This document shows positions 6,728 through 63,318 of a stretch of DNA of 64,000 bases, in pieces. The position numbers and the translations under genes are program-made. The DNA is from Chiloscyllium plagiosum. Lineage: Eukaryota. Every line of letters begins with the position of its first letter. The stretch's first letter is position 1. The stretch spans positions 10,194,637 through 10,258,636 of the forward strand of contig NC_057745.1 in assembly GCF_004010195.1 (NCBI RefSeq). The letters run 5' to 3'. The notes beneath the pieces are model-generated. The model had not been told where the DNA came from, made no database searches, and was given only the letters and a program-made list of their open reading frames with translations.

Positions 6728-7282
6728 TGCAAGAGCTGCAGATGTTGGATACCTGAAACAATAAAAACAGAAATTGGTGTAGGGACTAGCAGGTCAGGCA
6801 ACATCTGTGGAGAGAAAACAGTTAACGCCAAAACTATTGAATGTTTTGAGTGGTCACTGGACTTGAAATGTTAACTCTGTTTCCCTCTTCACAGATGCTG
6901 CCAGACCTGCTGCTTCTCTGGCAATTTTTATTTGGCTTATTTCAGATTAGATTACTTTACAGTGTGGAAACAGGCCCTTCGGCCCAACAAGTCCACACCG
7001 ACCCGCCGAAGCGCAACCCACCCATACCCCTACATTTACCCCTTATCTAACACTAGGGACAATTTAGCATGGCCAATTCACCTGACCCTGCACATCTTTG
7101 GACTGTGGGAGGAAACCGGAGCACCCGGAGTAAACCCACGCAGACACGGGGAGAACGTGCAAACTCCACACAGTCAGTCGCCGGAGGCGGGAATTGAACC
7201 CGGGTCTCTGGCGCTGTGAGGCAGCAGTGCTAACCACTGTGCCACCGTGCCGCCCACTCCAGCATCTGCAATTCTTTGTTTT
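6728..7282. mobile_element. Penelope-derived fold-back mini-element with degenerate hammerhead, split by a SINE
   Basis: Inverted arms ctgcagatgttgga...aaacagaaattg / caatttt...ccagcatctgca. Confidence 0.6.
6944..7255 (-). mobile_element. HE1-like V-SINE
   Basis: tRNA head ggcggcacggtggcacagtggttagcactgctgcctcacagc, V domain gtgtggagtttgcacgttctccccgtgtctgcgtggg, (taatc)n tail. Confidence 0.9.
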
Positions 7283-8204
7283 AACTTGGTGTATGATCAC
7301 CCAAAGTTCTCTTCATTCAACACCATTCTTCAAGATGAGACAATTGCATGCCACTCTATTTTAAGAAAGATGTAATGAAAATCAGGCAGTTAAAGTGTTG
7401 ACCTAACATCAGTTATTGTGAAATTTGTTGAAGCTGCAATTCACTACAGAGTGGCTGAATATGACTTGTTGAACAGGTTACTCTGGATATATGTTGAAAC
7501 TTGCTTCTCTGTGTTTACCAGTTGCCGATCCAACAAATCTGCTTCTGTTGTATCCAAGTGTTAATTTCACACAGGAAGCCATTTAGCCTATAGTCTGATT
7601 TGTTCAATGCATTGCCAAATTAGATCACAACTGTCTGAAAATGCCCATAAGCTCAAGTAAAATTGTGGTGCAAAGAACAAAAATGCTGACTGATTTTCAA
7701 AGTTTGTGAAAGTTTGAAATCACAGGGATTTGTGTATGCTTTACAAAAAGCATTGTTAGCATGCAGGATCTACAAACAGTCAACAAGGAAATATATTGCC
7801 GTGCCTTCATGTCGCTGGGAATTACCTCCCGAACGGCATTGTGGGTCAACCGACAGCAGCTGGGTGACATAAGGCAGCTCACCACCGCCTTCTCAAGGAC
7901 AAATAGGGATGGGTAATAAATGCTGGCCAGCCAGCGATGTTCACATCCCACAAATGAATAAACCATTTTTCGGTATTTAACAGAGTAGCTGCTGAGAAAC
8001 TGTTTCCTTTGGGCCATGGGTTGTCCAGAGCTCATGTCATGATTTCTGGTTAAAGGTAGCTATTTAGGACAGAGATGCAGAAGAATTCCTTCATAGAGGC
8101 TGTGAATCTTTGGAATCCTCTAAATCAGAGAGGTACATGGGAATATTACCTCATTGATTTGGGGTTAAGGAAAATGGGGCCAGTGTGGAAGTTGAATCAT
8201 GAGG

Positions 8205-8578
8205 TACAATGGTGGAGTAGTGGTCATGTCATGGATTGTAACTTAGAGGCTCAGGCTAATGATCTGGGGCATGGGTTCAAATCCTGCCATGGCAGCTGCT
8301 GGAATTTTAAATCTGTTCATAAATTAAGAATATTCTCAGTAATGGTAAACATAACAAATATTGTTAATTGTTGCTAAAGCACTTCTAGTTCACTAACAGT
8401 CATCATGGAAGGAAACCTACTGTCCTCGCCTGGTCTGACTAATATATGACTCCGTATCCACAGCAATGATTTTAACTGCCACTCTGAAATGGTTGAATAA
8501 GTCACTCATTTCAAGGACAGAGTGATGGGCAATAATGGCAGTCTGCCATTGATGCCCACATCTCCTGGAAGAATAACG
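8205..8578 (+). mobile_element. tRNA-derived SINE, third family (also minus copy ~17225-17810 interrupted by a CR1 tail, and short copy ~23400-23500)
   Basis: A/B boxes tggtggagtagtgg / gggttcaaatcc; LINE-like 3' tail gatgggcaataa...gatgcccacatc..gaataa. Confidence 0.6.
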
Positions 8579-8654
8579 GAAAATAATGTAATCATGATGA
8601 AACTTATAGCTTCTTGCTAATATTTGTAAAATGTCCATTGACATGATATCATGA

Positions 8655-8685
8655 ACATTTCGATTCACTTCCTCAACAGGATCTG
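8655..8685 (+). promoter_or_regulatory. Splice acceptor of UGT copy 1 coding exon (CAG|GATCTG, exon starts 8680)
   Basis: Pyrimidine tract + AG|GATCTG shared by all three copies. Confidence 0.7.
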
Positions 8686-8705
8686 GATATCACTTATTTT
8701 GGACA

Positions 8706-10320: not shown

Positions 10321-10594
10321 GATTAATGTGGTTGAATTGAAAAAGATGCTTCGATAATTTTCAATTTATCAATGGTCATTTCATCCAGTATCTAATTCAT
10401 TCCATCCAGTTGGCATTAATTTGAATTAATGCTTTGAGGAAAGTATCACAGGAGTGACATGCCAGTTAATACTAGACCTCGTGAATAGATGCAGACATGG
10501 ACATGGTGTACTTAAATTTTAAAGAAACAGTGCTTTGTCCAAAACAAATCATCATATTAGTTCACGCGCGATCATGAATTTAAAATAAAGACAC

Positions 10595-10772
10595 ATGACA
10601 ACAAGTTATAGTCAAACAGATTTATTTGAAATCACAAACTTTCAGAGTTCTGCTGCTTCATCAGATGAAGGAGCAGCACTTTATAAGCTTGTGATTTTAA
10701 ATAAACCTGTTGGACAATAACCTGGCATCATGTGACTTCTGTCCACCCCAGTTCAACACCGGCACCTTCACC
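10595..10772. mobile_element. Penelope-derived fold-back mini-element (hammerhead family B, degenerate)
   Basis: Inverted arms ttatagtc.aacag.tttatttg / aataaacctgttggac.ataacc around gatgaaggagcagcac. Confidence 0.65.
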
Positions 10773-13690: not shown

Positions 13691-13697
13691 GGCTATG

Positions 13698-14035
13698 AAA
13701 AAAAAACAGAAATTGCTGGGAAAACTCAGCAGGTTTGGCAGCATCCGAGGAGAGAAAGCAGAGTTAACATTTCAGGTGCATTGACCCTTCTTCAGAACTG
13801 GCTCTGAAGTTTGAACTATTGAACTGGCAAAGGCTCCTCTGAAGTTAAATGCCAGATCCTTAAACCTGCCTCAATCATTGTCACAAACAAAAACAGAAAT
13901 TGCTGGAAAAACTGAGGAAGGGTCACTCGACCCAAAACATTAATTCTGCTTTCTCTCCACAGACGTTGCCAGACCTGGGGAGCTTTTCCAGCAATTTCTG
14001 TTTTGTTTCTCATTTCCAGCCCTGCAGTTCTTTCT
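13698..14035. mobile_element. Two Penelope-derived hammerhead mini-element fragments
   Basis: Minus ctgaagaagggtcaatgcacctgaaatgtt; plus ctgaggaagggtcactcgacccaaaacatt. Confidence 0.6.
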
Positions 14036-14039
14036 GTCC

Positions 14040-16100: not shown

Positions 16101-16211
16101 TCAGCTCAGTACCTTGCTCCCCACTGGAAAAATCACATAATGTGCCAAATTCTCTGCACAAAGTGCTTTATTGATTCTGTAGGTTTCGTCTAAGTGACCG
16201 ATGCATATGGA

Positions 16212-16400
16212 TTAGAGATGCCAGTGTTGGACTGGGGCTTACAAAGTTAAAGCCACACAACACCAGGTTATAGTCCAACAGGTTTATTTAGTAGCACTAG
16301 CTTTCGGAGCACTGCTCCTTCATCAGGAAGCTAGTGCTCCGAAAGCTATGCTTCCAAATAAACCTGTTGGACTATAACCTGGTGTTGTATGATTTTTAAT
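16212..16400. mobile_element. Penelope-derived fold-back mini-element with 12-bp TSD
   Basis: TSD gatgcatatgga at 16200-16211 and 16401-16412; inverted arms. Confidence 0.8.
16297..16327 (-). ncRNA. Minimal hammerhead ribozyme motif (family B)
   Basis: cCUGAUGA-aGGAGC-agu-GCUCC-GAAA-GCUA: intact core, stem II, palindromic AGCU stem III. Confidence 0.7.
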
Positions 16401-19400
16401 GATGCATATGGAAGTTTAATCCGATTTGAATTGGTTGTTAAATGTGTTCATATTTTGGGGGGATCTCATCCATTATCACTTCCTTTGTAACTGCATCTTT
16501 TAGATCTCTTAATCTCTTAACCCTGACTTCCACCGAGTACAGATCTTTCTTTTCTCTCCCCATTTTGTTTGCTTATGACCTATTACATTTGTAACACTTC
16601 CCAGTCCCAACTGACATGAAATTTGACTTTTCATTTCTCTGTCTTTTCAGATTTTCAATGCACCTGGTAGTTTTCTTATTGTTTGAATTGTGAATTGGTT
16701 CAACGTCGATGGGAAGTAAATGTTCTAAAAAGTGTAGGAAATTGCAAGAAAGTAGTATGCTTTATCAGCTTGTGACCTCTTAACAGGAATTGTGCATATT
16801 GAGGCTTTGGGAGCTGAACCTCTGGAGGAAATTCTGTGAACTGAGGCAGTAGAACAGAAGAATGTCCAGAAAACAGTGCTTAGGAGGTCAGGCAATGTCA
16901 TGGTGAGATCAACAAAGTTAACTCGTCAGGTGGTGCAACCAGTGGTTGCAAGCCTTCAGTCTGGATTAGAGATTTATTGACAGGAGTGGAAGTGTGCACT
17001 ACCTCTACTTGTGACAGGACAATGTTTCACATGAGATTGTGCAGTGACCAGATATATTCACGCACTAGGGTCTACAGCAAATCTTGAGGTAGCCAAGCCA
17101 GCAATTTGACAGCTGCATTATTACTTCATGGAGTTGATGGTCCAAGTATTATGTTTAACAAGAACCTGGTCTACTATTCCAAGGATCATGCCAAGTCTAT
17201 TTGACCAACTTGTGATTTTTAAATAAATGCTAGACCAGCATTTATTGCCTATCTATAATTTCCCACAGGGCAATTAAGAATCAATTACATTGCTGTGGGT
17301 CTGGTGTCATGTGTAGGCCCGATTAGGTAAGGATGGCAGTTTCTTCCCTAAAGAACATACTAGGGAATATATTTTAAAATGAGAGAAGAAAGTCTTAAGA
17401 AGGGCATGAGGGACAAATTTTTTAAAGAGTGGTTTATGTGTGGAATGAAGTGCCAGTGGTGGATGCAAGTCCAGTTACGACATTTAAAAGACATTTAGAT
17501 AAGTTCACGAATAGGAAAGGTGGAGGGATATGGGCCAAACACAGACAAGTGAGACTAATTTTGTTTGATAACATAGGATGGACTAGTTGGACTGAAGGTC
17601 TATTTCCATGCTGTATGATTCTATGACATTAATGAAGCAGATGGGTTTTTAAGGTAATCGACATTGGATTTAATGGTCGTCATTTCATTTTAATTCCAGA
17701 TAACCTTTTCCCAAATTCCACCATCTGCTGTGATGGGATTCGAACCCATGTCTCCAGAACATCACCTGTGTCTCTGGATTAAAAGTCCAACAATAATACC
17801 ACAAGGCTGTCACCTCTGCTTATATCCAGAATCAACTGCCTCTTTGGCTCACTCTTTGCTTATTTCAAACCACTCTGCCCTCCCTCTCCTAGAATGGCTG
17901 CAGTCATGGAACAACATTCCACACAGAGGCAAAGCAGCTCCTTCTCACTCCAACTCCAGCCAGTAACTACTTCCTTGCTTTTATTAGCCTCTAGATGATT
18001 TTGTATCCTTGGTATGTAACTTTTGTGTCCTCAGGATGGAGACAAGCACTTGTTCAAAGTCATCAATACTTTCTCACTATTCATAATAATTTCTCCTATC
18101 TCTGCTGCTCACGTGTTTGAAAAGGTCTCTAGGTAGACTAGTCAGAGAAGTAAAATGAATCTTAGGGAGTGGCAAGTTGGAGCCAAGACTGGCTCTGTGA
18201 CAAGATGCTGAAGTCAATAGTTCATGCCGTTTTATGTTTGAAAGGTTGTTTGCAGTATAATTATACAGGTTCAGTCCTAGGATACTTGCTTGTAGTGTTA
18301 TATTAGAATGATTTAGAAGGATTAGGATTCAGAGGTAAATTATCCCTCATTCCATTTAAAATGTTTGGAGCTGTATTAAAAAGAATTAAAACAAGATTGA
18401 GGAGGTCAAATTTGATTCTGCACTGATGATCAGTACTTTCTCTCACTTTGACACCCTAGTACCTATTGTATTTTGTTTGATAAGTTAGATATCAAGTGCT
18501 GGAAAGTCCTTTTCATATAACACTTTAATGTGTAAATTAAGCATATTCAAGAACAACCTGTTGGCTTGTTATGACATGTATTACTCTCGGATATCAGCTT
18601 TTCCAGCAGTTACCTTGTTTTGTTCTCCTACACGCAGCTTTTCATTCCTCTATCAGATGGCGGGTGCCCTTTCACAAATGGCCACTCTATTGCATTGAGT
18701 GCCAGGATTGCAAATGTAGGAAAATTAAAATGCATCAAAACAGAAGTGATCCATTTACTGCAGGCAAAAAAGTGGGGCAAGTTGTTTTTTTTCTCTAGTT
18801 CCTCACTACTCTGCATTATGAACAGAAGTAAAAGCTATTTCATCCAATGAGAGCTTATTGTGCTGCTTTGTTCTGGTCTTCATGTCAGCCCTCAAGAGCA
18901 GATGACATATCTGACAGAGTGATCGGGCCTGATCTCTTCTCAAAATTAATGTGGAACATGGTTAACACAGACATTGGTAATTTGCTGAGTTGCTGACTAT
19001 TTTCCTTACATATCATGTCCGTGGCAGTTAATGATGCAATCCAAAATGTGTGCACTACAAATTCACAAAGGCATTTAAAAACAACTTTTTTTACTCTTCA
19101 CTACAAAGAATTTTCTTTTCTCCTCAAGTTTTCCCACATTTTGTTCCCAGAGGAACAAAAGCACATAGCTCTGCAGAATGGAAGAATCCACTCAATTCTT
19201 TGTTCTGTAGATTTCCTGTTACCAGCAAAGTCATCTTGAGGTCATTGAGAACAAACCTGGCATTTCTCACTAAGTTCTGGTAGGTCGTTAATACACAGCT
19301 CTCAGACAGCCACAGCTGAGGGAGAAACCAAGCCAAAATGAACCGAAGGCAGTGTCCTTCACATAAAGTTTACCCTTGAAGCTAACTGTAAATATTGTGA

Positions 19401-19696: not shown

Positions 19697-19842
19697 GTAT
19701 TCCATTTCCCACAGCAGGAGAAAGTGAGGTCTGCAGATGCTGGAGATCAGAGCTGGAAATGTGTTGCTGGAAAAGCGCAGCAGGTCAGGCAGCATCCAGG
19801 GAACAGGAGAATCGACGTTTCGGGCATAAGCCCTTCTTCAGG
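19697..19842 (-). mobile_element. Penelope-derived mini-element (family A)
   Basis: gagaaagtgagg.ctgcagatgctgg...aaagcgcagcaggtcaggcagcatcc body with terminal hammerhead. Confidence 0.75.
19812..19842 (-). ncRNA. Minimal hammerhead ribozyme motif (family A)
   Basis: cCUGAAGA-aGGGC-uuau-GCCC-GAAA-CGUC: intact core with GUC site. Confidence 0.75.
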
Positions 19843-22800
19843 AACAGCCAAACTTGTATCTCTGTGAGGAAGATGGCAAATATCATATTAGTTTGTGGAC
19901 AATGTTGTGCTCTGTTTTCTGTCAGCTTCACTTACATCATTCTGGATTTCGAAAATCAATAGGTTGTAAAATGCATCACATTTCTCTGGACCAGATTCAA
20001 ACCTAAGTCTGAGTAATTAAAAAACATGGTTCTAACTCACTGCTCCACCTCGACGATTTTCCTGGCTTTCTGTTTGAGCAGTGTAAGTGACATTGTAATG
20101 AGAATGTAAAGGTCACTAACTGCCTGCAACTGATTAATTGATACATGGTTGTAAAATACTAGGTGTTTTCCTGAATGTTATGATGGCAACAATAGATATT
20201 AACCTGCAAGCATTTTTAGAAATAAACAACAGATTGCATCAAATGACAATCAATTTAATAAAACTTGGTTCCTTGCAGTGATCAGTTCTAGATGTTCTAA
20301 CAGGAATATGGGCGTCTAACTGTCCTGAAAGGTCTTTGGAGAGAACAAATTCCAATTTTCACATCATGCAACCATCGGTACCCTAAACTTTTAGCCTTCA
20401 ACTGTGGCATACAGACTTGTTTATTTTGCTAAATGTGGTGCAGGCCTGCTGTGTTTTTCCAGCACTACATTTTTCAACTCTGGTACTCCAGCATCTGCAG
20501 TCCTCACTTTCTCCTTGTTTATTTTGCTGCAACGTGTCAACCTTTATTGAGATACCATTTAGTATTGGTCCTCAATTGTCAAAAACACCTAAAATCTGTT
20601 CATGATATGTATACATAGCAGCATTAACCTCTATTTAGGATCCTAGTTGATGCTGATAAAGGCAGGACAGTGTAAAGCTGACAGCCTGACAGAGGCGACT
20701 CGACGATACACTAACTGCTGTAATCAGAGTATAGAGTAGGGAGAACATCTTACCTTCATCCAAGTCCTTGAACTTTATGGGAAGCCTCAGCCAAACTGTG
20801 CATTGGAGAAACTGGTGTCATTAATTCAACTGAAGCTGAACCACCTCTGAACTCACACAATAACTAGAAAAGAATTGAGTCATTTTGCTTCTATGTGCAG
20901 TCAGCAGATGTGTCAATGTTTTAAGAAGGCAAGGCATCAATGAAGAACCTGCTAAGTACAGAAAGGCCATCAAAGCTTTCAATTCATATTCTGGGTTTCA
21001 AAGGGAAGCTCTCAAAGTCCAGGAGAGATTTCATAGACACCAGGTGCTTGCAACAATTGTTTTATTGCTTTGGTCATTCTTTCTATGGAGTGCAGGTAAA
21101 GCATAGGAATGGGATGGATACCAGAATGCCAACAATAAATAGATCTGGAAGGCAGTGGGGGCAGTTACCAAATTAATTAAAATCTCTGTTGTGGCAGGAA
21201 AACATTACATCACAACCACACCTGTCTAGTTATTGATATAGAGTATTCATTCTTGCCATGGTATCACTTCGGCATATACCACAGCAACAGCTTTCACCTA
21301 CACCTCAAACTCAAACACTTACAAATGCCGACAATATAGGAGTCCCAAACACTGTTACGTACAAGGTCTCAGAATCTAAAATATAATATGATAAAATGAT
21401 CAATTGCCAGATGACACACTTAAATGGGACACAGGGATGGATATGTCCATTCTTTTGGATGTCACACTTTGCTTGACACCTGGGTTTATCCAGCTATCCA
21501 CTCTTCATCTCTGTGCCTAGAAGGTATTCCATTGATGCCTCAAGACTCCTTTTGTTAAGAAGGAAGAGTAACGACTGAAATCCTTTGTGGATGATTCAAT
21601 CAGTAGTCCACCTGACTAAGTCACAGGGTGTGCACAGACTTACTTCTTAACTGCAAGGTGATAAGCAAGACAGCCCAAAAATGTTCAAGACAAACTACTG
21701 GAACTATTCAAACCACAGGGAAGCTGCAAATGGCTTACCATATCATCCTAAAACTAACTGCCAAGCTGATCTGTTTATTCACCCAAGGGTAGGTTCCACA
21801 GCCTCTTTTATGTGTTCAGAAAGGACATTTGAAGCCATGCTGTACCAGTAGGTTAAATTGTCAGGCACCCTGCCGCCTTCTTGATGCTTTCAAATGGAGC
21901 CTATAACAATGCACATATAAAAGAAACATCCAACTCAAACTAATTGCTACTGGGTAAGGATGAAATCAAACCCTCCATTCCTCTTTGCTTGAAGTTGAAA
22001 GATTGTTTAGTTTCAGTATAACAGTAACTACAACAGGTATGTAAAAAGTCTATCACAATGAAAATAGATTCCTCACATTCACACAGAAGCCACCTGATTT
22101 TTGTAAACATATGTGTATCTTTACTTATCATATACATTTATTACATACAGGAATTTGAGGGCACTGGAGTTGTACGCTAGGAGGAAGTGTCCTGTTGTGG
22201 AGAAAACAGAATCAAGGAAATGAGTTTAAGAGTAATAGATCTGTTAAGACACATGCGGAGAATGTTCTCTCAAAGAGTTGCTAGATGGTGGATTTCTCTT
22301 CCCCCGAGGATGTGAAGGCTGGACCTTTAAATTTATTCAAGGTTCAGTTAGATTTTTGATAGATGAAGGAAGGTAAGGGTTATTGGGCACTGATGGAATA
22401 GTGAAGCTGAGACTACAATCAGATCAGCCATGGTCTGACTGAACAGCAGAACAGGCTCAAGGGCTGAATAGCGTACTCCTGTTCTAAATGTTCCTACCGT
22501 TCAGATTTCTTTAGGTAACTGGAATGATAACCAAAAACAGCATGAACACTTCTTTGGCATAACACTGAAATGGGGCTCAAATCTATACATTTCTGGTGCT
22601 GAAAGGGAATTGATGTGCTGCCAGCTGTGGTATTTTGACCTTATAGGCATTAAAAGCTGGCTAGATTTAACCATGCATGTTAAACTTCGGTGAAGTGGGG
22701 TAATGGCCCCTTTTTATAATCCTCTCTCAATTGCAAGTAATATCTCTTAACATTTCCCCTTTTAGCATGTAGCTAAAATGAAGGAGAGCCTTTGAGTTTT

Positions 22801-24142: not shown

Positions 24143-25739
24143 ATATGCCTGCACTAATGACTTGTACAATCGCTTTCTTCATTTGGTGGAGCTGAATGCA
24201 TGACTGGCATGAGCAGTAGGTCACAAACACGTTGCTGTACACTCTATTTGTGTCACAATGTTATGTATTAAAAAGATCATAAAAATATAGAAAGGAGTCT
24301 GTTAAATCAGAACTATCAACAATTCTGCGGAAGTCTGAGAAAACAGAAAGGGTTAATTATAAGAAACATTCATTCTGTCAAAAGAGGGCTGTAAGGACAA
24401 AAAAAAATCTTTTACAGTTTGCATCTGTTTCCCAACAATGGTCAAACCTAGAATCATTCAGGCTTATCAGGGTTAAAGAGATGTCAGTTTTATTGATCAT
24501 GATAAAAACATCAAGTTCTTATTGATTGATTTAAAAATGCTTAAAACTTTCTAATTTAGATTATATTATTATATAAGAAATGTTACCATAGAATTTGTCT
24601 ATCTTATCTTTTTCAGCTTACGCCTTAATTGGGAATTGAGAATGTAATTTTGACTGGGTGATATAAGCCACATGTAGACATCTGGTTCCTCTCTCCTCAC
24701 AGTCAATAACTTCTGCTTGGTTTTCCTGATGTTTCTTTCATTAAAATGTTCCATTATTTATATCTGTTGCAACTAATTTATAATGTTTCTGTTAAGCCTA
24801 CTGATCATTCCTAAATAATTCAATTACAGTGTGATGTGGTTATGTAGGGCAATATAGTTAGGGAGGTAGATACTGGATGTTCTAAGATAGTGTCAACTGT
24901 TCAGCAGTTCACTTTTGGAGACATCCCTGGAGTGGGAAGGGCAGGATCAAGTTAGCATGGTTCATTTTGGAACCAAAAGCCGAGGTAGAACTCCAACAAA
25001 GTCCTTCCAACAAAGCTTCATTTAATGTCCAAATTAAAACATAGAAAGTGATAATCGCTGGATTGTTGGCCAAATCAAATTAAATTGGCATAAAACCATG
25101 CAGATTAGAGTTAAATATGTGCCTGAAAGAGTTGCGTGGAAGGAGGGTTTTTGATTGGTAAAGCACTGAAACACATATTTGGAAGAATCAGCTGTTCTTT
25201 TACAATGGAATCCACTAAAGTTGAGCTGGGATCAGGTTCTAGGGCTTTAAAGTGAAACTGGTTTTATTAATTGGTTTATAGGTCATTCTTTCATTTGTTA
25301 TTCAGGTGTTGACACTTTAATCACCTTGTGGTTACCTGTTATTTAGGCTGTTGACACTCACTATTTGTATTTATCCATTGATATTCCTAATCACCTGGAA
25401 TTACCTTACCATTTTCTCTCTGCCTATATATTCAGCACCTGTGCGTCCCTTTGTACTTCTTCTAAAGAAGGAGCAGTACCCTGAAAGCTTGTGATTTTAA
25501 GGAAACCTGTTGGACTATAACCTGGTGTCATGTGACTTCTGATTTAAAGTAAGAGACAAGGTGCAAGTGATGTGTTTGGTGAGGTGGTCAGGTGAATAGA
25601 GTGTTAAAACTGTAAGAGGGAAAAAGTCAAACCTTTAAGGCAATATGATGATTTGGATAAAGGCAAACAGAATGGAATAGGAAGAGACAAAGATTTTTAA
25701 GGTAATAATGCATCAGTAAACAAGATCCTTACAAAGAAC

Positions 25740-27020
25740 CGTAGAGAAAATAAAATTAATGACTCGTTATCCAAATGCATGAAACATTTGTAGGAAGGTA
25801 AATGAACCAATGGATTAAAATTAGAACTGATCATCATTACAGGGACATCTTTATAAGATGATCAAGTTTACAAAATAAATATTTCAGTGTACGTAACATT
25901 TCAAACTGACAGGCAGAGTGGAACTGAATAAAGAGTAGCCCTGATGTTAAAGGATGGCATAGGACAATTATGAAAAAAGATAGGTTTTCAGAAGTTCAGG
26001 AATTTAGAATCAGTGTGGGCAGAGATTGGGAAGAGCAGTTGTCATAATGATTCAAACAAAGAGACCAAGAGTTATATATCTAAAGTTTCTAAGTTAAATG
26101 GAACTATAGCTCTGAGGAGGACAAAAAGAAGCTACAGACCGATTAAGTGAGTTGGTAACCAGATGTTAGACGGATGTACAGCAAGCAATAAGAGTTTAAA
26201 GGCAAGTTGATACTTTATTGCAAGGAGATTGGAATATGTGAGTAAAGCTTACTACAGTTGTAAATGGCTTTGGTGAGATCACATCTGGAATATTGTGCAA
26301 TGTCGTAGTCTTCATATCCAAGGAAGGATATTCTTGTCTAGGAGGTGATACAGTTAAGGTTTTACTAAGTTGGTTCCTAGGATAAGAGCATTGTCTTATG
26401 ATGACAGACTGAGACATTTGGACCTATGCTCTCTGATGCTTAGAAAAATGAGATGATCTCATTGAAACATAAGGATTTTGACAGTTTTAGACACTAAGGA
26501 GAAAATGCAGACTGCAGATGCTGGAAATCAGAGTCAAGAGTGTGGTGCTGGAGAAGCACAGCAGGTCAAGCAGCATCCAAGGAGCAGGAGAATTGACATT
26601 TTGGGAATAAGTCTTTCAGCCTGATGAAGGGCTTATGCCTGAAATGTTGATTTGCCTGGTCCTCAGATGCTGCCTGGCCTGTTGTGGTTTTCCAGCACTA
26701 CACTCTCGAGATTAGACACTACAATAGTTTCCCTTGACTAAAGAGTGTGGAATATGGGGACAATGGGTCAATCATGGAGACCTGAGATGAAGAGAAATAC
26801 CTTCATTTAAGATAATTGTGAATCTCTGCTGTTGTCTATTGTAGTTGCTTGTTTCTTGAGTATGCTCAAGACTGAGATTTGATAGGTTTTGCATTTCTCC
26901 AAGAATTAAAAGCTTTGGGAAGCACCAAGAAAGTGAACTTTAACTTGCAGTTCAGTCATAAATGGCAGAGCACACTCGTGGAGTAGGATGATATATTCAT
27001 GCTCCTACCTCTTATACTCT
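25740..27020 (+). mobile_element. Old, internally deleted CR1 ORF2
   Basis: APE start (ccaaatgcatgaaacatt), LVRSHLEYC motif, 3' end. Confidence 0.6.
26497..26711. mobile_element. Penelope-derived fold-back mini-element (family A) with 10-bp TSD
   Basis: TSD ttagacacta at 26487-26496 and 26712-26721; plus-strand ctgatgaagggcttatgcctgaaatgtt at 26621-26648. Confidence 0.8.
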
Positions 27021-39214: not shown

Positions 39215-39230
39215 ACTGTTTCATCCGAAT

Positions 39231-42000: not shown

Positions 42001-42218
42001 GGCAAAAGAGAGGACTGTAGATGCTGGAAATCAGAGACTGGATTAGAGTGATGCTGGAAAAGCACAGCAGGTCAGGCAGCATCTGAGGAGCAGGAAAATC
42101 GACATTTTGGGCAAAAGCCCTTCATCAGGAAATTGATGAAGGTCTTTTGCCTGAAACGTCAATTTCTGCCTGACCTGCTGCCTGACCTGCTGTGCTTTTC
42201 CAACACCACTCTAATCTA
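42001..42218. mobile_element. Penelope-derived fold-back mini-element (family A) with back-to-back hammerhead remnants
   Basis: gacattttgggcaaaagcccttcatcagg / ttgatgaaggtcttttgcctgaaacgtc; inverted arms. Confidence 0.75.
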
Positions 42219-52915: not shown

Positions 52916-53337
52916 TCGATCATTGACAAGAAGAAGATACAGTTACATAAAGTCTTAGGAAAGCAAAAGGTAAATGCAGCAAAATAGTAAGGGTGTTTTG
53001 CTAACATTGTGTAGTACTTTGGAGAAATCACTCCTTGAGATTGTCCAAATTAAGGACTGATTTGTTTTAGAATGGAAGCAATAAATGTTTACAAAATAGA
53101 TTCCTGGGTTAAGAGGGTTGTCTGATGAGTAACAGATTAGCTGAGTAGGCCAAATTTTCAAGGGTTTGGAAGTCTGAAACATTAATCTAAAATGAAATTA
53201 TAAAATTGACAGAGGCTTTATTCTGAAGATATTGGAATACTATGTTTCATTACTCATATTATAATATGAGGTAATAGAACTAGAACTGGATCTAGAATTA
53301 GAACTCAGAATTACACCATTAGAATAAGGAAAAAATT

Positions 53338-54395
53338 TGCAAGGTTTGTGAAGGTTTGTAGCTCAGGTTGAGGTTTAGGGTGTAGGTTTGCTCGCTGAGC
53401 TGTAGGTTTGATATCCAGACGTTTAATTACCTGGCTAGGTAACATCATCAGTGGCGACCTCCAAGTGAAGCGAAGCTGTTGTCTCCTGCTTTCTATTTAT
53501 ATCTTTCTCCTGGATGGGGTTCCTGGGGTTTGTGGTGATGTCATTTCATGTTCGTTTTCTGAGGGGTTGATAGATGGCATCTAGATCTATGTGTTTGTTT
53601 ATGGCGGTGTGGTTGGAGTGCCAGACCTCTAGGAATTCTCTGGCATGTCTATGCTTAGCCTTTCCCAGGATAGATGTGTTGTCCCAGTTGAAATGCTGTT
53701 TTTTTTCATCCGTATGTAGGGCTATGAGGGAGAGGGGGTCGTGTCTTTTTGTGGCTAGCTGGTGTTTATGTATCCTGGTGGCTAACTTTCTTCCTGTCCA
53801 GAAATGACAGCCAGACTACTGAGACCCCTCGGAATCCTAGTAGCACACAAACCCACCAACACTCTCAAACAAAAACTAACAAACGTAAAAGACCCAGTAC
53901 AACCCATGGACAAAACCAACATCATCTATAAAATTCCATGCAAGGACTGCCACAAACACTATGTAGGACAAACAGGAAGAAAGTTAGCCACCAGGATGTA
54001 TGAACACCAGCTAGCCACAAAAAGACACGATCCCCTCTCCCTCATAGCCCTACACACGGATGGAAAAAACCAGCATTTCAACTGGGACAACACATCTATC
54101 CTGGGAAAGGCTAAGAAAAGACATGCCAGAGAATTCCGAGAGGCCTGGCACTCCAACCACAACGCCATAAACAAGCACATAGATCTAGATGCCATCTATC
54201 AACCCCTCAGAAAACGAACAGGAAATGACATCACCACAAACCCCAGGAACCCTATCCAGGAGAAAGATATAAATAGAAAGCAGGAGACAACAGCTTCGCT
54301 TCACTTGAAGGTCGCCACTGATGATGTTACCTAGCCAGGTAACGAAACGTCTGGATATCAAACCTACAGCTCAGCGAGCAAACCTACACCCTAAA
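53338..54395. mobile_element. Penelope-like element, inverted structure, GIY-YIG endonuclease, 12-bp TSD
   Basis: ORF 53804-54334 IIYKIPCKDCHKHYVGQTGRKLATRMYEH; arms 53373-53797 / 53972-54395; TSD aaggaaaaaatt at 53326-53337 and 54394-54405. Confidence 0.92.
54315..54354 (+). ncRNA. Minimal hammerhead ribozyme motif of the Penelope element
   Basis: CCA-CUGAUGA-u-GUUACC-uagcca-GGUAAC-GAAA-CGUC-UGG: stem I CCA/UGG, perfect 6-bp stem II, GUC site. Confidence 0.8.
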
Positions 54396-54544
54396 GGAAA
54401 AAATTCTTAAGAAGGTTATGAATTTTTACAATTGTCTACCCAGTGAGTTGTGGGTGCTCAATGCATTGAAGAATTATTTGAATAGATTTTTGGAAATTAA
54501 GGGGAAGTAAAGTTGAAATTGTTCAGCTACCTCCTTCTTGAAAG

Positions 54545-55237
54545 AAACAAAAAAAACCGCAGTTGCTAGAGTCCAAAGTAGTCAAGCAGGAGGCTGGATG
54601 AACACAGCAAGCCAGGCAGCATCAGGAGGTGGGGAAGTTGAAATTCCGTGTACACCCATTCTTCAGGAAGGGGGGGGGTGGGGTTAGTGGGAGCTGCAGA
54701 TAAGGAGAGGGGGGGGGGGGGAAGGGTTTTGGGTGGGGAGGGAGCAGAGCAGTGAGCTAGTGATAGGTAAACATAGGAGGTGGGTATGACCTGATTGGTC
54801 GATGGGAGGAATGAATCTGGTTGGTAGCTGGAAAGAAGGATTGGTAAGTGGAATGAAAGGGAGGGGGGGCTGGAAAGGGAGTCAGGGAATGGGAATGGAG
54901 GTTATTTGAAATTGGAAAACTCAATGTTGACTCCTCCCAGCTGTCGGCTACCCAGGTGGAAGATAAGGTGATGTTCCTTCAATTTGTGGTCTGATTCACT
55001 GTGGCAATGGAGGAGATTGAGGATGTACATTTTGGAGGAGTGGGAAGGGGAATTGAAGTAGGCAGTGACTGGGAGGTCAGGCTGGCCCTTACGGGCCCGG
55101 CTGAGACGCTCATTAAAATGTGCCCTTGGTTTGCGTTTGGTCTCCCCGATGTAGAGGAGACCTCATCAGGGGCACTGGATGCTGTAAACTAGGTTGGAGG
55201 AGAGGAGGATAAACCTCTGTTTCACCTGGAAGGACTC
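54545..55237 (-). mobile_element. Second Penelope-like element 3' part (different lineage), decayed GIY-YIG
   Basis: Minus strand SNLVYSIQC...LLYIGETKRK...PVTAYFNSPSHS...LIFHLGS...NIEFSNF*; 3' end resembles family A mini-elements. Confidence 0.8.
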
Positions 55238-55327: not shown

Positions 55328-55361
55328 TCAATATTTATCTTCAATTCTCCAAAAGGATCTG
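55328..55361 (+). promoter_or_regulatory. Splice acceptor of UGT copy 3 coding exon (AAG|GATCTG, exon starts 55356)
   Basis: Same acceptor motif 25 nt before the ATG. Confidence 0.7.
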
Positions 55362-55380
55362 GAAATTCCTTGCTCTTGAA

Positions 55381-57489: not shown

Positions 57490-57655
57490 TTCTGCCATAA
57501 AATCTGTGTCTTATGATCCTATTCTCCACAACCACTTGATGAAGGAGTAGCGCTCTGAAAACTAATGCTTCCAAATAAACCTATTGGACTATAACCTGGT
57601 GTTGCATGATTTTTGACTTTGTCCACCTTGGTCCAACACCTGCTCCTCCACATCA
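57490..57655 (+). mobile_element. Penelope-derived mini-element (family B) inside a CR1 3' fragment (57390-57920)
   Basis: ttgatgaaggagtagcgctctgaaaacta...aataaacctattggactataacctgg. Confidence 0.65.
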
Positions 57656-60020
57656 TGACAACTCTTTAGAACTGAGGTGAGGAGGTATTTCTTCAGCTGG
57701 AGGGTGGTGAATCTGTGTAACTCATTGTCACAGACGTTTGTGAAGGCAAAGTCATTGAGTGTATTTAAGAGAGAGATAGATAAGTTCTTGATTAGTAAAT
57801 GGATCAAAGGAAATGGGGAGCAGACAGGAGAATGGGGTTGATAAATATATTAGCCATGATCGAATAACAGGATAGACTTGATGGGCCAAATGGTTTAATT
57901 CTGCTCCAATATCTTATGCATTGTTTTTTAGTCTTAAAAGTGGGCAGAAAGCTGATGAATTTATTGAAAGGTGGGGATTTAAGGATAGTAGAATAAAATT
58001 GATCCAAGTAGGATGAGGAATATGACAGCAGTAAATTATGGATATAGACTAGGAAGGAAAAAGGAAAATCAAGAATAAACCTCCACTACCTGTTATTTTG
58101 CTCAACTGGTATTCTCATCTTTATTGAGAAGGAAATGGAGTTCAATCCAACAATTCGTTGCATACAAACCTGCCAAATTTGACATCTAAATGAGCATCAT
58201 ACTTCAACAGAGGTGTTGTCCCAGCTGAAGTGAACAGCCCCTGTTATTATTCAAATGGAATGAAACCCTTCAAGATTCTCCAACAATGTTCTTGCCTGAA
58301 CCAACACCATCAAAAATTGATTGACTAGTTATTCATCACACTGGTAGGATCTTGTTCATGGAAAACAAATTGTATTTGTCAACATCGAACAAATTCTAGA
58401 ATTGTTAGAACCTATTGCATGCATATGACTTTCCAGTTCTAAAAAGCTGCAAAATCTGAACTTGTAACTCTCCACAGAGTTTGCCTGATTTCAAGTATTT
58501 CCAATATCTTCAGCTTTTATTTCAGATTTCCATATCATCTGCAGTATGTTGTCTTCACAAAAATCTCAGTTCTGTTTAATAAGTAACTAATAATTTCATT
58601 GCTCAGAAAGCGACTTGTGGAATTGCTTGGCATGCGTATACTGAAATCCAACTTAGGCTGTGAGCTTTAATTGGGACAGCAAAATCAATAATGATGCCAA
58701 CATATTAGAAATACAGTTTAGAGATATATTTGTGTACATAATATGAAGAATTTTGACATTAATTTTGCGGTTTGGAGCAGCATTCATATCAAACATTGAG
58801 AAATTGGGGTAAGAGTCAAAAAATAAGTTGTCTTTGGGTTTGTGAGTGTTGGCCACAGAAAAAAACTTTTGACAAGATTTTAAGCTGAGCTATACCACTG
58901 GAACGGAAGCAATGAACAAGAATGTCAACTTTGATTCTTTTGAGGCACTTGAACTTTCTAGCTAGGGTTTTGGTAGTCAGGTGGGAAGCCAACTTTTGAC
59001 TAGACTTTTGTATTTTTATTTTGTATATTCTGCCTTTTTTTTGGCTTTTTGTTCCATTAAATCTGTCAAGCAGTATAGGGGAGAATCAGATAGTGGAAGC
59101 TTACTTTCAGTAGTGATGTTATTCTGAGGACTGTTGGAGCCTCCATTAATCTTTGGATTCTCATGTGCACATGGCTGTTTAGCCACTGAGATGATGGTAT
59201 TCTGATTCAGGACGCTCTGGAATCAAGCAACAAAAAGCTTTCTGAGGGAAAACGGAGATTTTCAGACCAGTTATCCCAAGATCTGATGCTGTGGGCTGAG
59301 TAGAGATTTTAATTAAGAATAAAGTGACAAAGTAGTTTGAAACATTTCAGAGCATCACATGAATTTTCCTATCTCACTGTCTGAAAGAGCCACATATTTG
59401 AGTTTACCAGTAACACAATGATAGTGCCAGCATACGTGGAAATATACAATTAAAAGGAAAATGCAGTTACATTAAGTGAATATGCAAAACTGTGACAAGA
59501 ATGCTTTTGATATAGACATATGTGAGGATATCCACTCTGCATTTAAAAAGGATAGAGCAATATGCTTTGTCAATGGTGAGAGGCATGAAATATTTGAGAC
59601 CCAAATAGATTTAGGTGATTATGAGCACACTGTTAAAATGTCATTGACAAGTCTAGGAAAAAAAAAAGGCTCAAGGAGTATTGGCCTTCATATCTGGAGA
59701 CTGGAATGCCAAGGAGCAAACACTATGCTGCAGTTACAAAGTTCAAGTTACAATACTCAAGACCATACGTAGTCATGTGTTCAGTTCAGGCCATCTTATC
59801 TTGGGCTTAATGTACTGCTTTTGGAAACAATTCAGCACTGATTTCACTAAACACATAGCTAGATTCTCAGGACTTAATAATAATAAGAATTAATGCAACC
59901 TGGGATTCTATTCCCTGGAATTTAGATGGTTAAAAGGTGATATGATCAAAATGTTCAACATATTATTGCATGATGATAGGATAGATAATAACAAACTATT
60001 TCTGTTGGTTAGGAGTCTAG

Positions 60021-60354
60021 AGGGTGGCACAGTGGCTCAGTGGTCACAGTTTTAGGGACCCAGGATCAATTCCATCCTCAGATGACAGTCTGTAAGCAGT
60101 TTGCACATTCTCACTGTGTCTACACGTGTTTTCTCCTGGTGCTCCAGTTTCCTCCCACAATCTAACGATGTGCAGGTTAGGTCGATTGGCTATGCTAGAT
60201 TGCCCATAGTATCCAGGGATATGTAGGCTTGATGGATTGGCCACGGGAAGCCTAGAGATGCAGGGATGGAGTGAATCTAGGTCGGATGCGTTTTAGAAGG
60301 TCAGTGTTGGCTCGATGGACGGAATGGCCTGCTTCCATATTGTAGGGATTCTAT
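60021..60354 (+). mobile_element. Older V-SINE inserted in a decayed CR1 (59450-60620)
   Basis: tRNA head, V domain, CR1-like tail. Confidence 0.75.
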
Positions 60355-61089
60355 AAAGTGCTGGGCAGAGTCTAATGGTTAGAATGAGTCAATTCATGGA
60401 CGAAACTTGGATGCTCTTCTGTATGCAAAAGGTAGTAGAGTTTTGGAAGTCTGTTCCACTTATGGTATTTTACCGTAGGATGGTTACAAACTTTAAATCT
60501 TGCATAATTTTGTTAACCAAAGACAATGAGGGATATGCGGCAATGGTGGCTAAATGGAAATAATTCACAGATCAGCCATGATATCATGGAATGGTAGTAC
60601 AGGTTTAAGTGGACTTCTGTTCCTGTAACAAATCAAAAATAATGTTATGTCTAACTGAGGTAGTTCACTGAAAATCCAGCCCTGTTCCTCTTGGAATCAT
60701 AACAACAATTAAAGATTATTTTATAAAACTTTGCAGAATTCCCAATTTCCATGTCCTTTAGATCCAAGGTTGATTGAAAGCATGGATCAGGTTTCTGTAT
60801 TTAACAAGCATTACTAATTTATACAAATCAATTGATTCTAGCTACAAATAAACAAATATGGACCATTGACAGATAATTAGTTAAATGTTTAACTCATTTA
60901 CAAAGCTCAGTTAATGCACACATACATATAGGCACAAGAAAAAGTTTTAAAGGAGGAGGGAGTGACTGGGAAGATAGTTCAACAATCCCTGTCCAAAGCA
61001 ATCACTGAGATAATCTTTTTGGTATGACAGGACTGGTTATTTCTCAAAATTCTTTCTTCTGCCACTGAATGTAGCTAGTAGAACTGATA

Positions 61090-62232
61090 AGGGGGAGCCA
61101 GTGGCTGTGGTTTATTTGGACTTTCAAGGCATTCGATAACGTGTCACATAAGAAATTAGCATTAAAATTAAAGCATATGGAGTTGGGAGGTAGTGTATTT
61201 AGATGGATAGGGTGTTAACTGGTGGACTGGAAACAAAGTGTAGGAACAAATGAGACATTTTCTGATTGGCAGTCAGTGACAAGTGGGTATATCAGGAATC
61301 AATGCTTGAACCTCAGCTATTCACAACATATGTTAATGATTTAGACGAGAGAATTAAATGTAATACTTCCAGGTTTGAAGACAACACAAGGCTGAGTGGG
61401 AGGCTAAATTGTGAGGAAGTTGCAGAGATGCTTCAGTGTGTTTTGAATAGGTTGAGTCAGTGGATGAATGCACAGCATATAGAGTATAATGTGGATAAAT
61501 GTGAGGTTATCTATTACGGGACAAAAAAAAACAGGAAGGTGGATCATTATCTGAATGGTGATAGATTGGGAAAGGGGGAGTCCAATGACACCTGTGTGTC
61601 CTTGTGTACCAGTCACTGAAATTAAGTATGCAGGAACAGCAAGTGGTGAAAAAGGCAAATGACACATTTTCCTTCACAGGGATAGAATTTGAGTTCAGGA
61701 GCAGGATGTCTTGCATTTATACAGGGCCTTAGTGAGATAACAGCTGAATATTGATGTGCAGTTTTGGTCTCATTATCCGAGGGTCCTGGGATGGCAGGAT
61801 TGGCAGATTGAAGACAGACTTCATCAGTTAAGATAATATTCATCGGATTTTAGAAGAATAAAGGGAAAATCTAATAGAAGCCTATAACATTCTAAAGGAC
61901 CTCAATGTAAGAAGGATATTCCTGATGACTGGGGAGTTCAAAACACAGGACACAGTCTAAGGATATAGGGCCGGCCATTTAAGGCTGCATTGAGATGAAG
62001 ATAAATTTCTTCATCCAGACAGTCAAGAACCTGTGGAATTCTCTGCCATATGAGGGTTTTGAGCCAATATGATTCAATATTTTCAAGAAGGGGGTAGATC
62101 TAGTTTTTAGGGCAAAAGGGATCAAAGGGTGTACATGGAAACAGGGTTTTGAGTTGAATGATCAGCCATGATCATAATGAATGGCGGAGCAGGTTCAAAG
62201 AGCCTATTCTTATTTCTATTTTCTGTGTTTCT
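61090..62232 (+). mobile_element. Decayed CR1 RT/3' end
   Basis: QESMLEPQLFTTYVNDL, NVDKCEVI. Confidence 0.8.
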
Positions 62233-62921
62233 GTTTCACTCACTTGCAGGAAGCACAATGTGACTGGTTCATATTAATAAAGTCGCTGATATATTGATTA
62301 AGTTCAAGCCTACAGGAACTGATGAGCGAAATAAACTGGGTGTCTTCAGGCTTGAGGTGTTTCGTTTTATGCAGAGAAAAGGGCAGCTCCTTTCTTTTTA
62401 GAGATCCTTTGGCTTCTCACCAACTATTCTCACCAACTATTCTTGCCAACTATTCACACCCACAAGCTGCTCAACAACCTGGGAGCCAATCACATAGTTG
62501 TTGGTAGGCAGAAGGCAATTGTCATCGATAATTAGTCATCACTTTTCAGATCAATTAACTAAGCATGCATGACCAATCTGTCATGGCACAGAGAGTTGGT
62601 TCACTCTGTTGCTTGCTTGGCTGGTTTGTGTTGCAGAGTAACACCAACAACACAGATTCAATTCCTGCACTGGCTGAGGTTACTGTGAGGGACTCTCCCC
62701 TCACCTGAAGTTAAACAACCATCAGCCATCTCTTTCAAATGAAAGAGCAACCGTATGGTCTGGTCTCATGGGGGCTTTACCGCTATCTTAGTATTCCTCT
62801 GCCCACTGCTTGAACAAAAAGCAGTATATACAGCATTTATAAAGAGTAGCTATTAAACTTGCTATTAAAAAGTGCAGTAATCTTGCCTGCGATCCTTTGT
62901 TTTGAAACCAATCCATTTCCT

Positions 62922-63318
62922 TTCTGATGAAGAGCTTTTGTCTGAAACGAGGACTCTCCTACTCCTTGGATGCTGCCTGACCTGCTGTGTGTTTCCAGCG
63001 CCACACTCTCAACTCTCACCTCCAGCAACTGCAGTCCTCACATTTCCTTTCTCAGTCCACATTGAAAGATAATGTTAATATAGGTATGGATTTGGGGAAG
63101 TAGTAAATCAATATTTGCCACAAAAACCAACTTGAAACACATACTGAATATCTGAGCTACTGAGGGAAAATTTTTAACAAGTGAAGTGAGGAAGATACAA
63201 ACATTTCCTTTTAAACTCCTGGCAGGAGGTTCCTTTCTGATTAAAGGCTTTTGCCCGAAATGTCAACTCCCCTGCTCCTTGGATACTGCCTGACCTGCTG
63301 TGCTTTTCCAGCACCACA
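62922..63318 (+). mobile_element. Two family A hammerhead mini-element fragments (62922-63048; 63236-63318)
   Basis: ctgatgaagagcttttgtctgaaacg; ctgattaaaggcttttgcccgaaatgtc. Confidence 0.65.

What the first reader, a model, noticed from the sequence alone, without database searches (positions are those of the whole stretch)
6728..63318. Dense population of hammerhead-ribozyme-bearing Penelope-derived mini-elements, often as fold-back pairs
Seen: at least a dozen 80-250 nt repeats contain CTGANGA-stem-GAAA cores in distinct families: A (GGGC-ttat/tttt-GCCC GAAA CGTC; 19812, 26621, 42100-42160, 62924, 63237), B (GGAGC-agt-GCTCC GAAA GCT; 10640-10690, 16297, 25462, 57536) and C (GGGTC-act/c-GACCC GAAA; ~6850, ~13770, ~13913). 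Several are inverted pairs with 10-12 bp TSDs (16200/16401; 26487/26712), so they moved as units. The 3' end of the GIY-YIG element at 54545-55237 resembles family A. Known: Penelope-like elements carry minimal hammerheads with palindromic stem III thought to act as dimers. Inference: non-autonomous, retrozyme-like ribozyme elements easily mislabelled as SINEs or MITEs.
Basis: partly seen in the sequence, partly recalled or inferred. Interest (0 to 1): 0.7.

Follow-up and report, generated by a model that had tools for sequence, protein, structure and literature searches.

The report
Penelope retrotransposon stumps carrying hammerhead ribozymes
These short repeats are cut-off ends of Penelope-type jumping genes with their known minimal hammerhead ribozyme motif, an estimated million copies in what is likely a shark genome, and their mirror-image pairs nearly always carry the short tail on one arm only, which likely means that both cut DNA ends were copied from two start points on the element's RNA.

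Summary
The repeats are real, but they are not a new retrozyme class. The window holds 24 copies of the terminal repeat (pLTR) of Penelope-like retrotransposons. Five have an intact minimal hammerhead core, which is the genome's ordinary density. Families A, B and C run upstream into Neptune-type endonuclease (A, C also RT) sequence; a Poseidon-type family D was missed. Exact cores number 52,878 (A) and 6,121 (B) genome-wide, and stems I–III covary between families. No tandem arrays and no re-amplified unit were found. Head-to-head pairs with a one-sided tail are published. Added here: the tail is on exactly one arm in 71 of 76 classifiable pairs, the tailless arm reaches further 5' in 42 of 52, and 5' ends pile up just before the hammerhead, not at its cut site. 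Best reading, inferred: both DNA nicks prime reverse transcription at two fixed RNA sites, copying stops near a likely RNA 5' end, and the two cDNAs are joined. Cleavage is untested. This scan noted the same on other DNA.

The parts
6731..6948 (.). Family C head-to-head pair (- arm 6731-6827 with tail, + arm 6852-6948 without); decayed, no intact core, no duplication found
10592..10770 (.). Family B head-to-head pair (- arm tailless, + arm tailed); cores decayed; candidate 13-nt duplication
13697..13800 (-). Family C tailless pLTR; core intact at 13795, stem II and stem III partly decayed
13881..14033 (.). Family C: short - fragment (13881-13916) plus tailed + copy (13912-14033, G12 lost); candidate 10-nt duplication with 1 mismatch. 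Which - copy is the true partner is unclear
16200..16412 (.). Family B fold-back with exact 12-nt duplication (16200-16211, 16401-16412); - arm tailed with intact hammerhead (C3 at 16326, predicted cut after 16298), + arm tailless
19716..19844 (-). Family A1 solo tailed pLTR, 99% to consensus, starting 3 nt before C3; intact core (C3 at 19841, predicted cut after 19814)
20445..20515 (+). Family A1 tailed fragment without hammerhead
25461..25538 (+). Family B tailless copy, core broken
26487..26721 (.). Family A fold-back with exact 10-nt duplication (26487-26496, 26712-26721); - arm tailed, + arm tailless with core at 26621 (stem III decayed at CpG)
41698..41797 (+). Family C tailed fragment
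42013..42210 (.). Family A2 head-to-head pair (- arm tailed, + arm tailless); each core has one change; no duplication found
43714..43759 (-). Family A2 fragment without hammerhead
53326..54405 (.). Family D (Penelope/Poseidon-type) fold-back, arms 96% alike, exact 12-nt duplication; + arm holds the GIY-YIG frame (53786-54334) and an intact hammerhead overlapping its stop (C3 at 54318, predicted cut after 54351); - arm is tailed, with a broken core at 53451
54547..55236 (-). 5'-truncated Neptune-type element (subfamily Ap): end of the GIY-YIG domain, C-rich 3' UTR, decayed hammerhead, pLTR and tail
57496..57657 (+). Family B tailed copy reaching 40 nt into the 3' UTR; C3 changed to T
62918..63048 (+). 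Family A tailed copy; core present at 62924, stem II weakened
63231..63320 (+). Family A tailless copy, core broken

Best explanation
The repeats are 5'-truncated insertions of endonuclease-bearing Penelope-like retrotransposons, each the 90-125-nt terminal repeat that begins with a minimal hammerhead motif, and the mirror-image pairs likely arise when both nicks of a staggered cut prime reverse transcription at two fixed sites on the element's RNA. Shown: continuity with element coding sequence; two fixed 3' ends about 35-40 nt apart; one tailed and one tailless arm per pair; 10-17-nt duplications; a pile-up of 5' ends 1-9 nt before the hammerhead core; covarying stems. Inferred: (1) the GIY-YIG enzyme nicks both strands 10-17 nt apart; (2) one nick primes at the tailless site and usually runs further, the other primes at the tail end; (3) both often stop at what is likely the RNA's 5' end, so priming would be on the leader copy of the repeat; (4) end-joining links the two cDNA ends; (5) the ribozyme is selected in source elements and the scattered copies are dead. 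Confidence by step: identity about 0.97, two-site priming about 0.65, RNA 5' end about 0.5.
For: Parents: L226 has two family-A2 hammerheads 3,463 nt apart around the reading frame; L215 and L218 hold RT and GIY-YIG; RVT_1 E = 1.2e-7 in L225. A consensus walk upstream of the motif reached 2,018 nt (A2), 1,436 nt (Ap) and 1,093 nt (D) of element sequence. B reaches the endonuclease end in L004 and L011. C has a ladder to -574 and RT/endonuclease likeness in L169. Pairs in 1.16 Mb plus the window (397 copies): 88 close head-to-head, 4 tail-to-tail, 6 direct; 71 tail/tailless, 5 tailless/tailless, 0 tail/tail, 12 unclassifiable; 37.8 mixed expected, P = 2e-16. Duplications of at least 10 nt in 50 of 88 pairs against 8 of 200 controls. 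The tailless arm reaches further 5' in 42 pairs, the tailed arm in 10, with 6 ties. Two tailless copies carry only a 6-7-nt inverted tail tip at their 5' junction (L333, L349). Family A arms are 94.5% alike within a pair and 85.9% between pairs (16 pairs). Family A 5' ends: 2.56 per nt at -9..-1 against 0.36 at -20..-10; an initiator-like YYANWYY has its A at -4 in A1, A2 and Ap and in the C consensus. In 6 internally deleted A2 copies a 3' piece restarts at -4 to -9, as expected if the enzyme ran off there and jumped. In vitro, an anole Poseidon protein nicks and extends both strands, starts at two sites flanking the tail, and is predicted to be a dimer (PMC11167929).
Against: The architecture is published, and other mechanisms were proposed for it (self-priming, PMC3846280; endonuclease resolution, PMC8557442). 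PMC11167929 found no difference in start site between top and bottom strands, so it does not itself predict one site per strand. No RNA start or end pile-up was seen in one poly(A) single-cell run. Family B lacks YYANWYY yet shows the pile-up. The same bases form the 5' strand of stem I, so a structural stop cannot be separated from an RNA start. For family B, arm identity within pairs (0.90) hardly exceeds that between pairs (0.88), and the own partner is the best match in only 1 of 14 pairs (7 of 16 for A). Gene conversion between arms is not excluded. Only 17 of 165 solo copies showed a duplication by the automatic test. The tail thresholds and family labels are mine.
Confidence: 0.7

Rival explanations
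1. Snap-back: one cDNA made from the tail end folds back on itself and is extended into a hairpin; the endonuclease then trims the tail from the first-made arm during integration.
For: Fits head-to-head geometry and alike arms. With trimming it also fits the longer reach of the tailless arm. Self-priming was proposed from palindromes at inverted junctions (PMC3846280) and tail formation by endonuclease resolution (PMC8557442). A few junctions overlap within hammerhead stems.
Against: Among 36 younger pairs, 22 junctions have inserted bases, 1 is blunt, 6 overlap by 1-2 nt and 7 by 5 nt or more; snap-back needs pairing. The 6-7-nt tail-tip arms in L333 and L349 would need a loop of over 100 nt. 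Without trimming, the model predicts that the tailed arm reaches further 5', the opposite of 42 to 10.
Confidence: 0.2
2. The 5' pile-up is a reverse-transcriptase stop at the folded hammerhead, or at the edge of the pyrimidine-rich 3' UTR, on ordinary long RNA primed at its 3' repeat; no RNA start lies there.
For: The peak coincides with the 5' strand of stem I in A, B and C. Longer copies must come from the 3' repeat anyway. No RNA start was seen.
Against: Family D has the longest stem II, but only 1 of 20 copies starts at -9..-1 (most D copies are old). The pile-up lies past the structure rather than at its 3' side.
Confidence: 0.35
3. One reading: non-autonomous retrozyme-like mini-elements that are transcribed, self-cleave and re-insert as units.
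For: 298 of 397 copies begin at or after -20 and carry no coding sequence; very high copy number; pairs have duplications. A preprint derives tandem retrozymes from pLTRs and found some in one cartilaginous fish (10.64898/2026.07.22.740005).
Against: No core in 121 tandem arrays; varied junctions; ladder of 5' ends; no pile-up at the cut site in A (1 of 84 within 2 nt); fold-back RNA is predicted to bury the motif. Only about 0.03% of the genome was screened for arrays, so rare true retrozymes elsewhere are not excluded.
Confidence: 0.05
4. The motif is kept for protein coding or promoter function and does not act as a ribozyme.
For: In A2 the frame is open through the motif; in D it overlaps the end of the frame; initiator-like bases overlap stem I; published minimal hammerheads cleave weakly.
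Against: Loop II length differs between families (3 or 4 nt), which shifts the frame, while pairing in stems I, II and III is kept by double changes. One compensated stem II pair occurs 265 times against 13 expected. The anole motif cleaves with protein help.
Confidence: 0.1

Closest known systems
Endonuclease-bearing Penelope-like elements, Neptune and Penelope/Poseidon clades (PMC3846280; PMC8557442 Fig. 2 legend; PMC2377424)
   Same: pLTR, frequent 5' truncation, adjacent inverted 5'-truncated copy, 30-40-nt tail often at one end only, target duplication, C-terminal GIY-YIG; Zn-linker motif in A2 and Ap, absent in D.
   Different: Here most copies are only the pLTR (298 of 397 start at or after -20), 44% of copies sit in close fold-backs, and duplications are 10-17 nt against 8-10 in Adineta. 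The one-tail rule, arm asymmetry and 5' pile-up are counted here; I did not find such counts in print (searches).
Minimal type I hammerheads of metazoan PLEs (Cervera and de la Pena 2014, PMC4209133)
   Same: Extra base between positions 9 and 10.1, G10.1-C11.1 pair, palindromic 15.2-16.2, short stem I, many single motifs, opposite-strand pairs nearby.
   Different: Stem II is 4-5 bp in the Neptune families (7-8 bp in Schistosoma). 59,111 exact cores were counted for four patterns, and about 250,000 are extrapolated, against about 4,000 (coelacanth) and 9,000 (Xenopus) reported with a different method. No shark term in the one supplement searched.
Anole Poseidon element PAc in vitro (Frangieh et al. 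2024, PMC11167929)
   Same: Two reverse-transcription start sites flanking the tail, nicking and extension of both strands, no sign that cleaved RNA is the template.
   Different: It did not address fold-back formation and saw no strand difference in start site; most families here are Neptune-type.
Metazoan non-LTR retrozymes (PMC7229834; preprint 10.64898/2026.07.22.740005)
   Same: Short, non-coding, type I hammerhead, related to pLTRs.
   Different: Retrozymes are tandem arrays with a ribozyme per unit and give circular RNA; these copies are solo or head-to-head.
Twin priming of L1 (recalled, from no call)
   Same: Two nicks prime on one RNA and give an inverted 5' part within one target duplication.
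   Different: In L1 the second primer lands at a variable internal site and the arms do not overlap; here both arms copy the same repeat from two fixed sites.

Membership tests
EN+ Penelope-like element (parent families) | Reverse transcriptase in the same element as the repeat | tested here: met
   RVT_1 E = 1.2e-7 in L225; RT motifs in L215, L218 and L213; walk from the motif into RT for A2, Ap and D. For B only the endonuclease end was reached, for A1 only 327 nt by the walk.
EN+ Penelope-like element (parent families) | C-terminal GIY-YIG endonuclease with two cysteines between GIY and YIG | tested here: met
   Motif visible in window 53786-54334, window 54905-55237 and L215. Pfam GIY-YIG E = 0.003 and 0.00027, both below the curated cut-off; none for the 86-aa piece.
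EN+ Penelope-like element (parent families) | pLTR on both sides of the reading frame, with hammerhead | tested here: met
   L226: 3,463 nt apart; frame starts after the tail. D: direct pair 2,130 nt apart in L211.
EN+ Penelope-like element (parent families) | Optional 30-40-nt tail; inverted 5'-truncated copy; target duplication | tested here: met
Neptune versus Penelope/Poseidon clade | CX2-5CxxC linker before the endonuclease (Neptune) or its absence (Poseidon) | tested here: met
   Present in A2 and in Ap copies, absent in D; criterion from PMC8557442. Not seen directly for B and C. Nematis shares the linker.
Neptune versus Penelope/Poseidon clade | Placement on an RT tree with named references | not tested
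   No reference PLE proteins were fetched.
Minimal type I hammerhead of PLEs | Core boxes, extra base at 9/10.1, G10.1-C11.1, palindromic stem III, short stem I | tested here: met
   Stem I was not in the search criteria yet pairs over 3-4 bp in most families; A1 and A2 have a U-U mismatch.
Minimal type I hammerhead of PLEs | Compensatory changes between families | tested here: met
   Stems I, II and III change in pairs between A, Ap, B, C and D. 265 double changes against 13.4 expected from 921 and 769 single changes in 52,878; these are mostly one subfamily, so one event.
Minimal type I hammerhead of PLEs | Self-cleavage | not testable with these tools
   No pile-up of 5' ends or read ends at the predicted cut; unconstrained cofolding did not give the active dimer.
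Non-LTR retrozyme | Tandem repeats with a hammerhead in each unit | tested here: not met
   0 of 121 arrays in 1.26 Mb; 6 close direct pairs against 88 head-to-head.
Non-LTR retrozyme | Abundant monomer or circular RNA | not testable with these tools
   Only a poly(A) single-cell run had usable raw reads.
MITE-like or other non-autonomous unit | Many copies with the same ends and the same internal junction | tested here: not met
   Junctions vary among 67 pairs. One junction recurs in L037 and L058, which differ in sequence elsewhere. Internal deletions differ.
SINE | Pol III promoter head from a tRNA, 7SL or 5S RNA | not tested
   No scan was run; the repeats align end to end with pLTR sequence.

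The most novel reading that the evidence does not exclude
Penelope-like elements insert by obligatory two-ended priming: an RT dimer assigns one of two fixed RNA start sites to each nicked strand, mostly on the 5' leader of the transcript, so about a million genomic stumps record both start sites and the RNA's first base. The hammerhead is then the first 30 nt of the mRNA, placed to cut off the cap, and this genome would hold one of the largest ribozyme-motif populations known (about 250,000 intact cores).
Probability: 0.4. Interest if true: 0.65.

Novelty: new member of a known kind. Interest (0 to 1): 0.4.

Why it matters
How Penelope-like elements make their inverted ends and one-sided tail is an acknowledged open question (PMC8557442 calls for an in vitro system; PMC11167929 now provides one). 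The counts here turn it into clear predictions for that assay: one start site per strand, a longer tailless arm, run-off just before the hammerhead. It also matters for annotation: about a million repeats that could be labelled SINEs, MITEs or retrozymes are dead ends of two Penelope clades. The element type, motif and architecture are all known, so this is useful rather than surprising.

Tried and rejected
Strict motif without the extra base: near chance. Rfam: no hammerhead hit. The hammerhead-like hit at 55169 (-) lies inside GIY-YIG coding sequence and was rejected as chance. Pile-up at the predicted cut site: A 1 of 84, B 3 of 44, C 3 of 29 within 2 nt, together no denser than the positions just upstream; an early hint in B did not hold up. 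Joining through long hammerhead-stem pairing: only 7 of 36 younger junctions overlap by 5 nt or more. Extra G from a cap: 489 G against 219 A at -5 with a background ratio of 0.60, but the 20 G loci inspected include fold-back arms, local duplications and target-derived G, with few clear extra G, so this is inconclusive; no control at another position was run. A spliced leader before the motif: no shared upstream sequence among copies starting near -4. RNA: no RNA holder listed among indexed runs. Run X19 laid 1,397 reads on L158 in both orientations, 97% running on into other sequence, with no start or end pile-up; X20 laid none. Fewer changes in the core than in the rest of the repeat (0.9-3.4% against 8.6-10.4% at non-CpG sites) is biased by requiring alignment through the core and by subfamily differences, so it was not used as evidence of selection on copies. 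One reference joined the wrong subfamily's upstream part and was replaced. A further 200 kb of sample could not be added. One supplement file of PMC4209133 could not be searched, and the preprint's supplements were closed; both may name shark elements.


Full report
Setting. The window is G000:C36:10194637-10258636 in a 3.56-Gb genome. It holds a cluster of UDP-glucuronosyltransferase frames among many repeats. That the host is a shark is my inference from recalled repeat types; earlier scan notes say the same and I did not test it. Positions written as -n or +n count from C3, the first base of the hammerhead core.

Checking the observation. The motif as written gives 3 hits against 0.88 in 50 shuffles. 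Allowing one extra base after A9 gives 6 against 0.17 in 12 shuffles. That extra base is a published trait of Penelope-type minimal hammerheads (PMC4209133; parts 1-2 of 4 of the text read). Rfam finds nothing relevant. Alignment to family references finds 24 repeat copies in the window, 5 with an intact core. A fourth family, D, forms a fold-back at 53340-54395.

Scale. Exact patterns match 52,878 (A), 6,121 (B), 37 (C) and 75 (D) times in the genome, with 0 for reversed controls. Twelve 100-kb stretches from large contigs (1,162,102 bases without N; chosen by round coordinates, not at random) hold 373 copies and 83 intact cores; at least one core hit is chance. The window is typical: P = 0.25 for 24 copies. 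Extrapolation gives about 1.1 million copies and about 250,000 cores. PMC4209133 reports about 4,000 and 9,000 motifs for coelacanth and Xenopus by another method; a section title in PMC7229834 (passages) gives up to 120,000 for axolotl.

What the repeats are. Family A continues upstream through a C-rich 3' UTR into a GIY-YIG domain, and B through a CA-rich UTR. A2 continues downstream through the tail into a reading frame. L226 has two A2 motifs 3,463 nt apart; L215, L218 and L225 hold RT and endonuclease. Consensus walks reach RT for A2, Ap and D. C stalled in the walk but shows a ladder to -574 and protein likeness in L169. The Zn-linker is present in A2 and Ap and absent in D, which by PMC8557442 (passages) points to Neptune (or Nematis) and to Penelope/Poseidon. 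No tree was built. So the repeats are pLTRs of at least six subfamilies, mostly cut short: 298 of 397 copies start at or after -20.

The hammerhead. All families keep the core, the extra base and G10.1-C11.1. Stem III is ACGU in A, C and D and AGCU in B, both palindromic. Stem I was not a search criterion, yet it pairs and changes in step between families; A1 and A2 carry a U-U mismatch that one subfamily closes. One stem II pair is doubly changed 265 times against 13.4 expected from the single changes (921 and 769), mostly within one subfamily. This indicates selection for structure in source elements. It does not show cleavage. Published minimal motifs cleave weakly as dimers, and the anole motif needs its protein (PMC11167929; parts 1-2 of 4 read). 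Fold-back RNAs are predicted to be single long hairpins.

The fold-backs. Each family has two fixed 3' ends about 35-40 nt apart. Among 397 copies, same-family neighbours within 150 nt are head-to-head 88 times, tail-to-tail 4 and direct 6. Of the 88, 71 have the tail on one arm, 5 on neither, 0 on both, and 12 have a short arm that could not be classed (P = 2e-16 on 76). A second, biased set from pattern-found loci gave 59 of 79 mixed, with 6 tail/tail pairs in family A that I did not inspect. Duplications of at least 10 nt flank 50 of 88 pairs (20 of 27 younger ones), 17 of 165 solo copies and 8 of 200 controls. Of the 71 mixed pairs, 69 were resolved (2 dropped for length or N), 2 duplicates were removed, and 9 with starts past +45 were set aside; the tailless arm then reaches further 5' in 42, the tailed arm in 10, with 6 ties. 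Most junctions have a few inserted bases or 1-2 shared bases. Two tailless copies carry only the inverted 6-7-nt tip of the tail. Arms within a family A pair are more alike than arms between pairs; in B the gap is small.

The 5' ends. In copies at least 85% alike to a reference, family A ends fall at 2.56 per nt in -9..-1, 0.36 in -20..-10 and 1.5 in 0..+9; B and C show the same peak; none peaks clearly at the cut site. An initiator-like sequence has its A at -4 in A1, A2, Ap and C, which are related, but not in B or D. D shows little pile-up. In 6 of 30 loci found with the frame start, a 3' piece restarts at -4 to -9 after an internal deletion. Penelope's promoter and start site lie in the pLTR (PMC2377424, passages). 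One RNA run showed no start or end there, and the extra-G test was confounded.

Mechanism. I commit to two-site priming: a staggered cut, one nick primed at the tailless site and one at the tail end, early stops near a likely RNA 5' end, then end-joining. The one-tail rule, the arm asymmetry, the lack of junction pairing and the tail-tip remnants favour it over snap-back with trimming, which stays possible (0.2). The RNA-end step is about even against a structural stop.

Comparison. Inverted 5'-truncated copies, a tail often at one end only and 8-10-nt duplications are described in PMC3846280 and PMC8557442 (passages) and in PMC8969392 (passages); opposite-strand motif pairs in PMC4209133. Retrozymes are tandem by definition (preprint 10.64898/2026.07.22.740005, parts 1-3 of 5 read), and no core lay in 121 arrays here. 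Six searches found no paper on shark Penelope hammerheads or on twin priming in these elements. Of the papers they listed, I also checked passages of PMC6155905 and PMC8455134 and saw the rest as listings only. The library lacks most subscription journals and Repbase. Earlier notes of this scan reach the same reading on other DNA; they are not independent support.

Verdict. Real, Penelope-derived, a new member of a known kind; not retrozymes. Interest 0.4 for the scale and for the testable insertion rule.

Noticed in passing
window 8647-10320, 39216-40841, 55300-56989 (+); fragment 23026-23313 (-): Three paralogous UDP-glucuronosyltransferase coding regions that each look like one long exon: 39216-40841 is an open 541-aa frame, the first has one in-frame stop at 9745-9747, the third is split over two frames near 55800-55830.
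   Followed up: partly
window 53300-54420 with run X19: Family D reads are strand-biased (about 5-15 to 1 over much of each arm, in the direction that suggests sense RNA), unlike family A; 13 reads have T-rich loose ends at 53351, near the tail end, which may be poly(A) junctions (agreement 0.6, one sample).
   Followed up: partly
L131, L135, L137, L138, L142, L144, L146, L150, L153, L157, L158, L159: Internally deleted A2 elements: repeat, tail and frame start joined to a 3' repeat. Junctions differ. In L135, L137, L142, L144 and L157 a G stands just before the restart at -4 to -8, a weak hint of a cap or of a tail-tip remnant.
   Followed up: partly
L037, L058 (also L059, and C3 stretch near 90370): The same or a nearly identical fold-back junction (tailed arm ending near +10, tailless arm starting near 0) recurs in copies that differ elsewhere: likely a short-homology hot spot.
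   Followed up: partly
L149 / L217 (G000:C33 near 4.68 Mb): A 34-nt piece of the A2 RT coding region is expanded into a tandem array of at least 20 copies inside an element.
   Followed up: no
C8 stretch near 29905, 78043, 78546: Three A2 copies start at -3 behind the same unrelated upstream sequence, so they were likely copied as part of another repeat or duplication.
   Followed up: no
window 23599-24137: Degenerate repeat with units about 72 nt apart and a 136-aa open frame.
   Followed up: no
window 12546-13610, 29724-35495, 45631-47147, 50510-52780: Many broken fragments of LINE-type endonuclease and RT frames; they look CR1/L2-like (label recalled, from no call).
   Followed up: no
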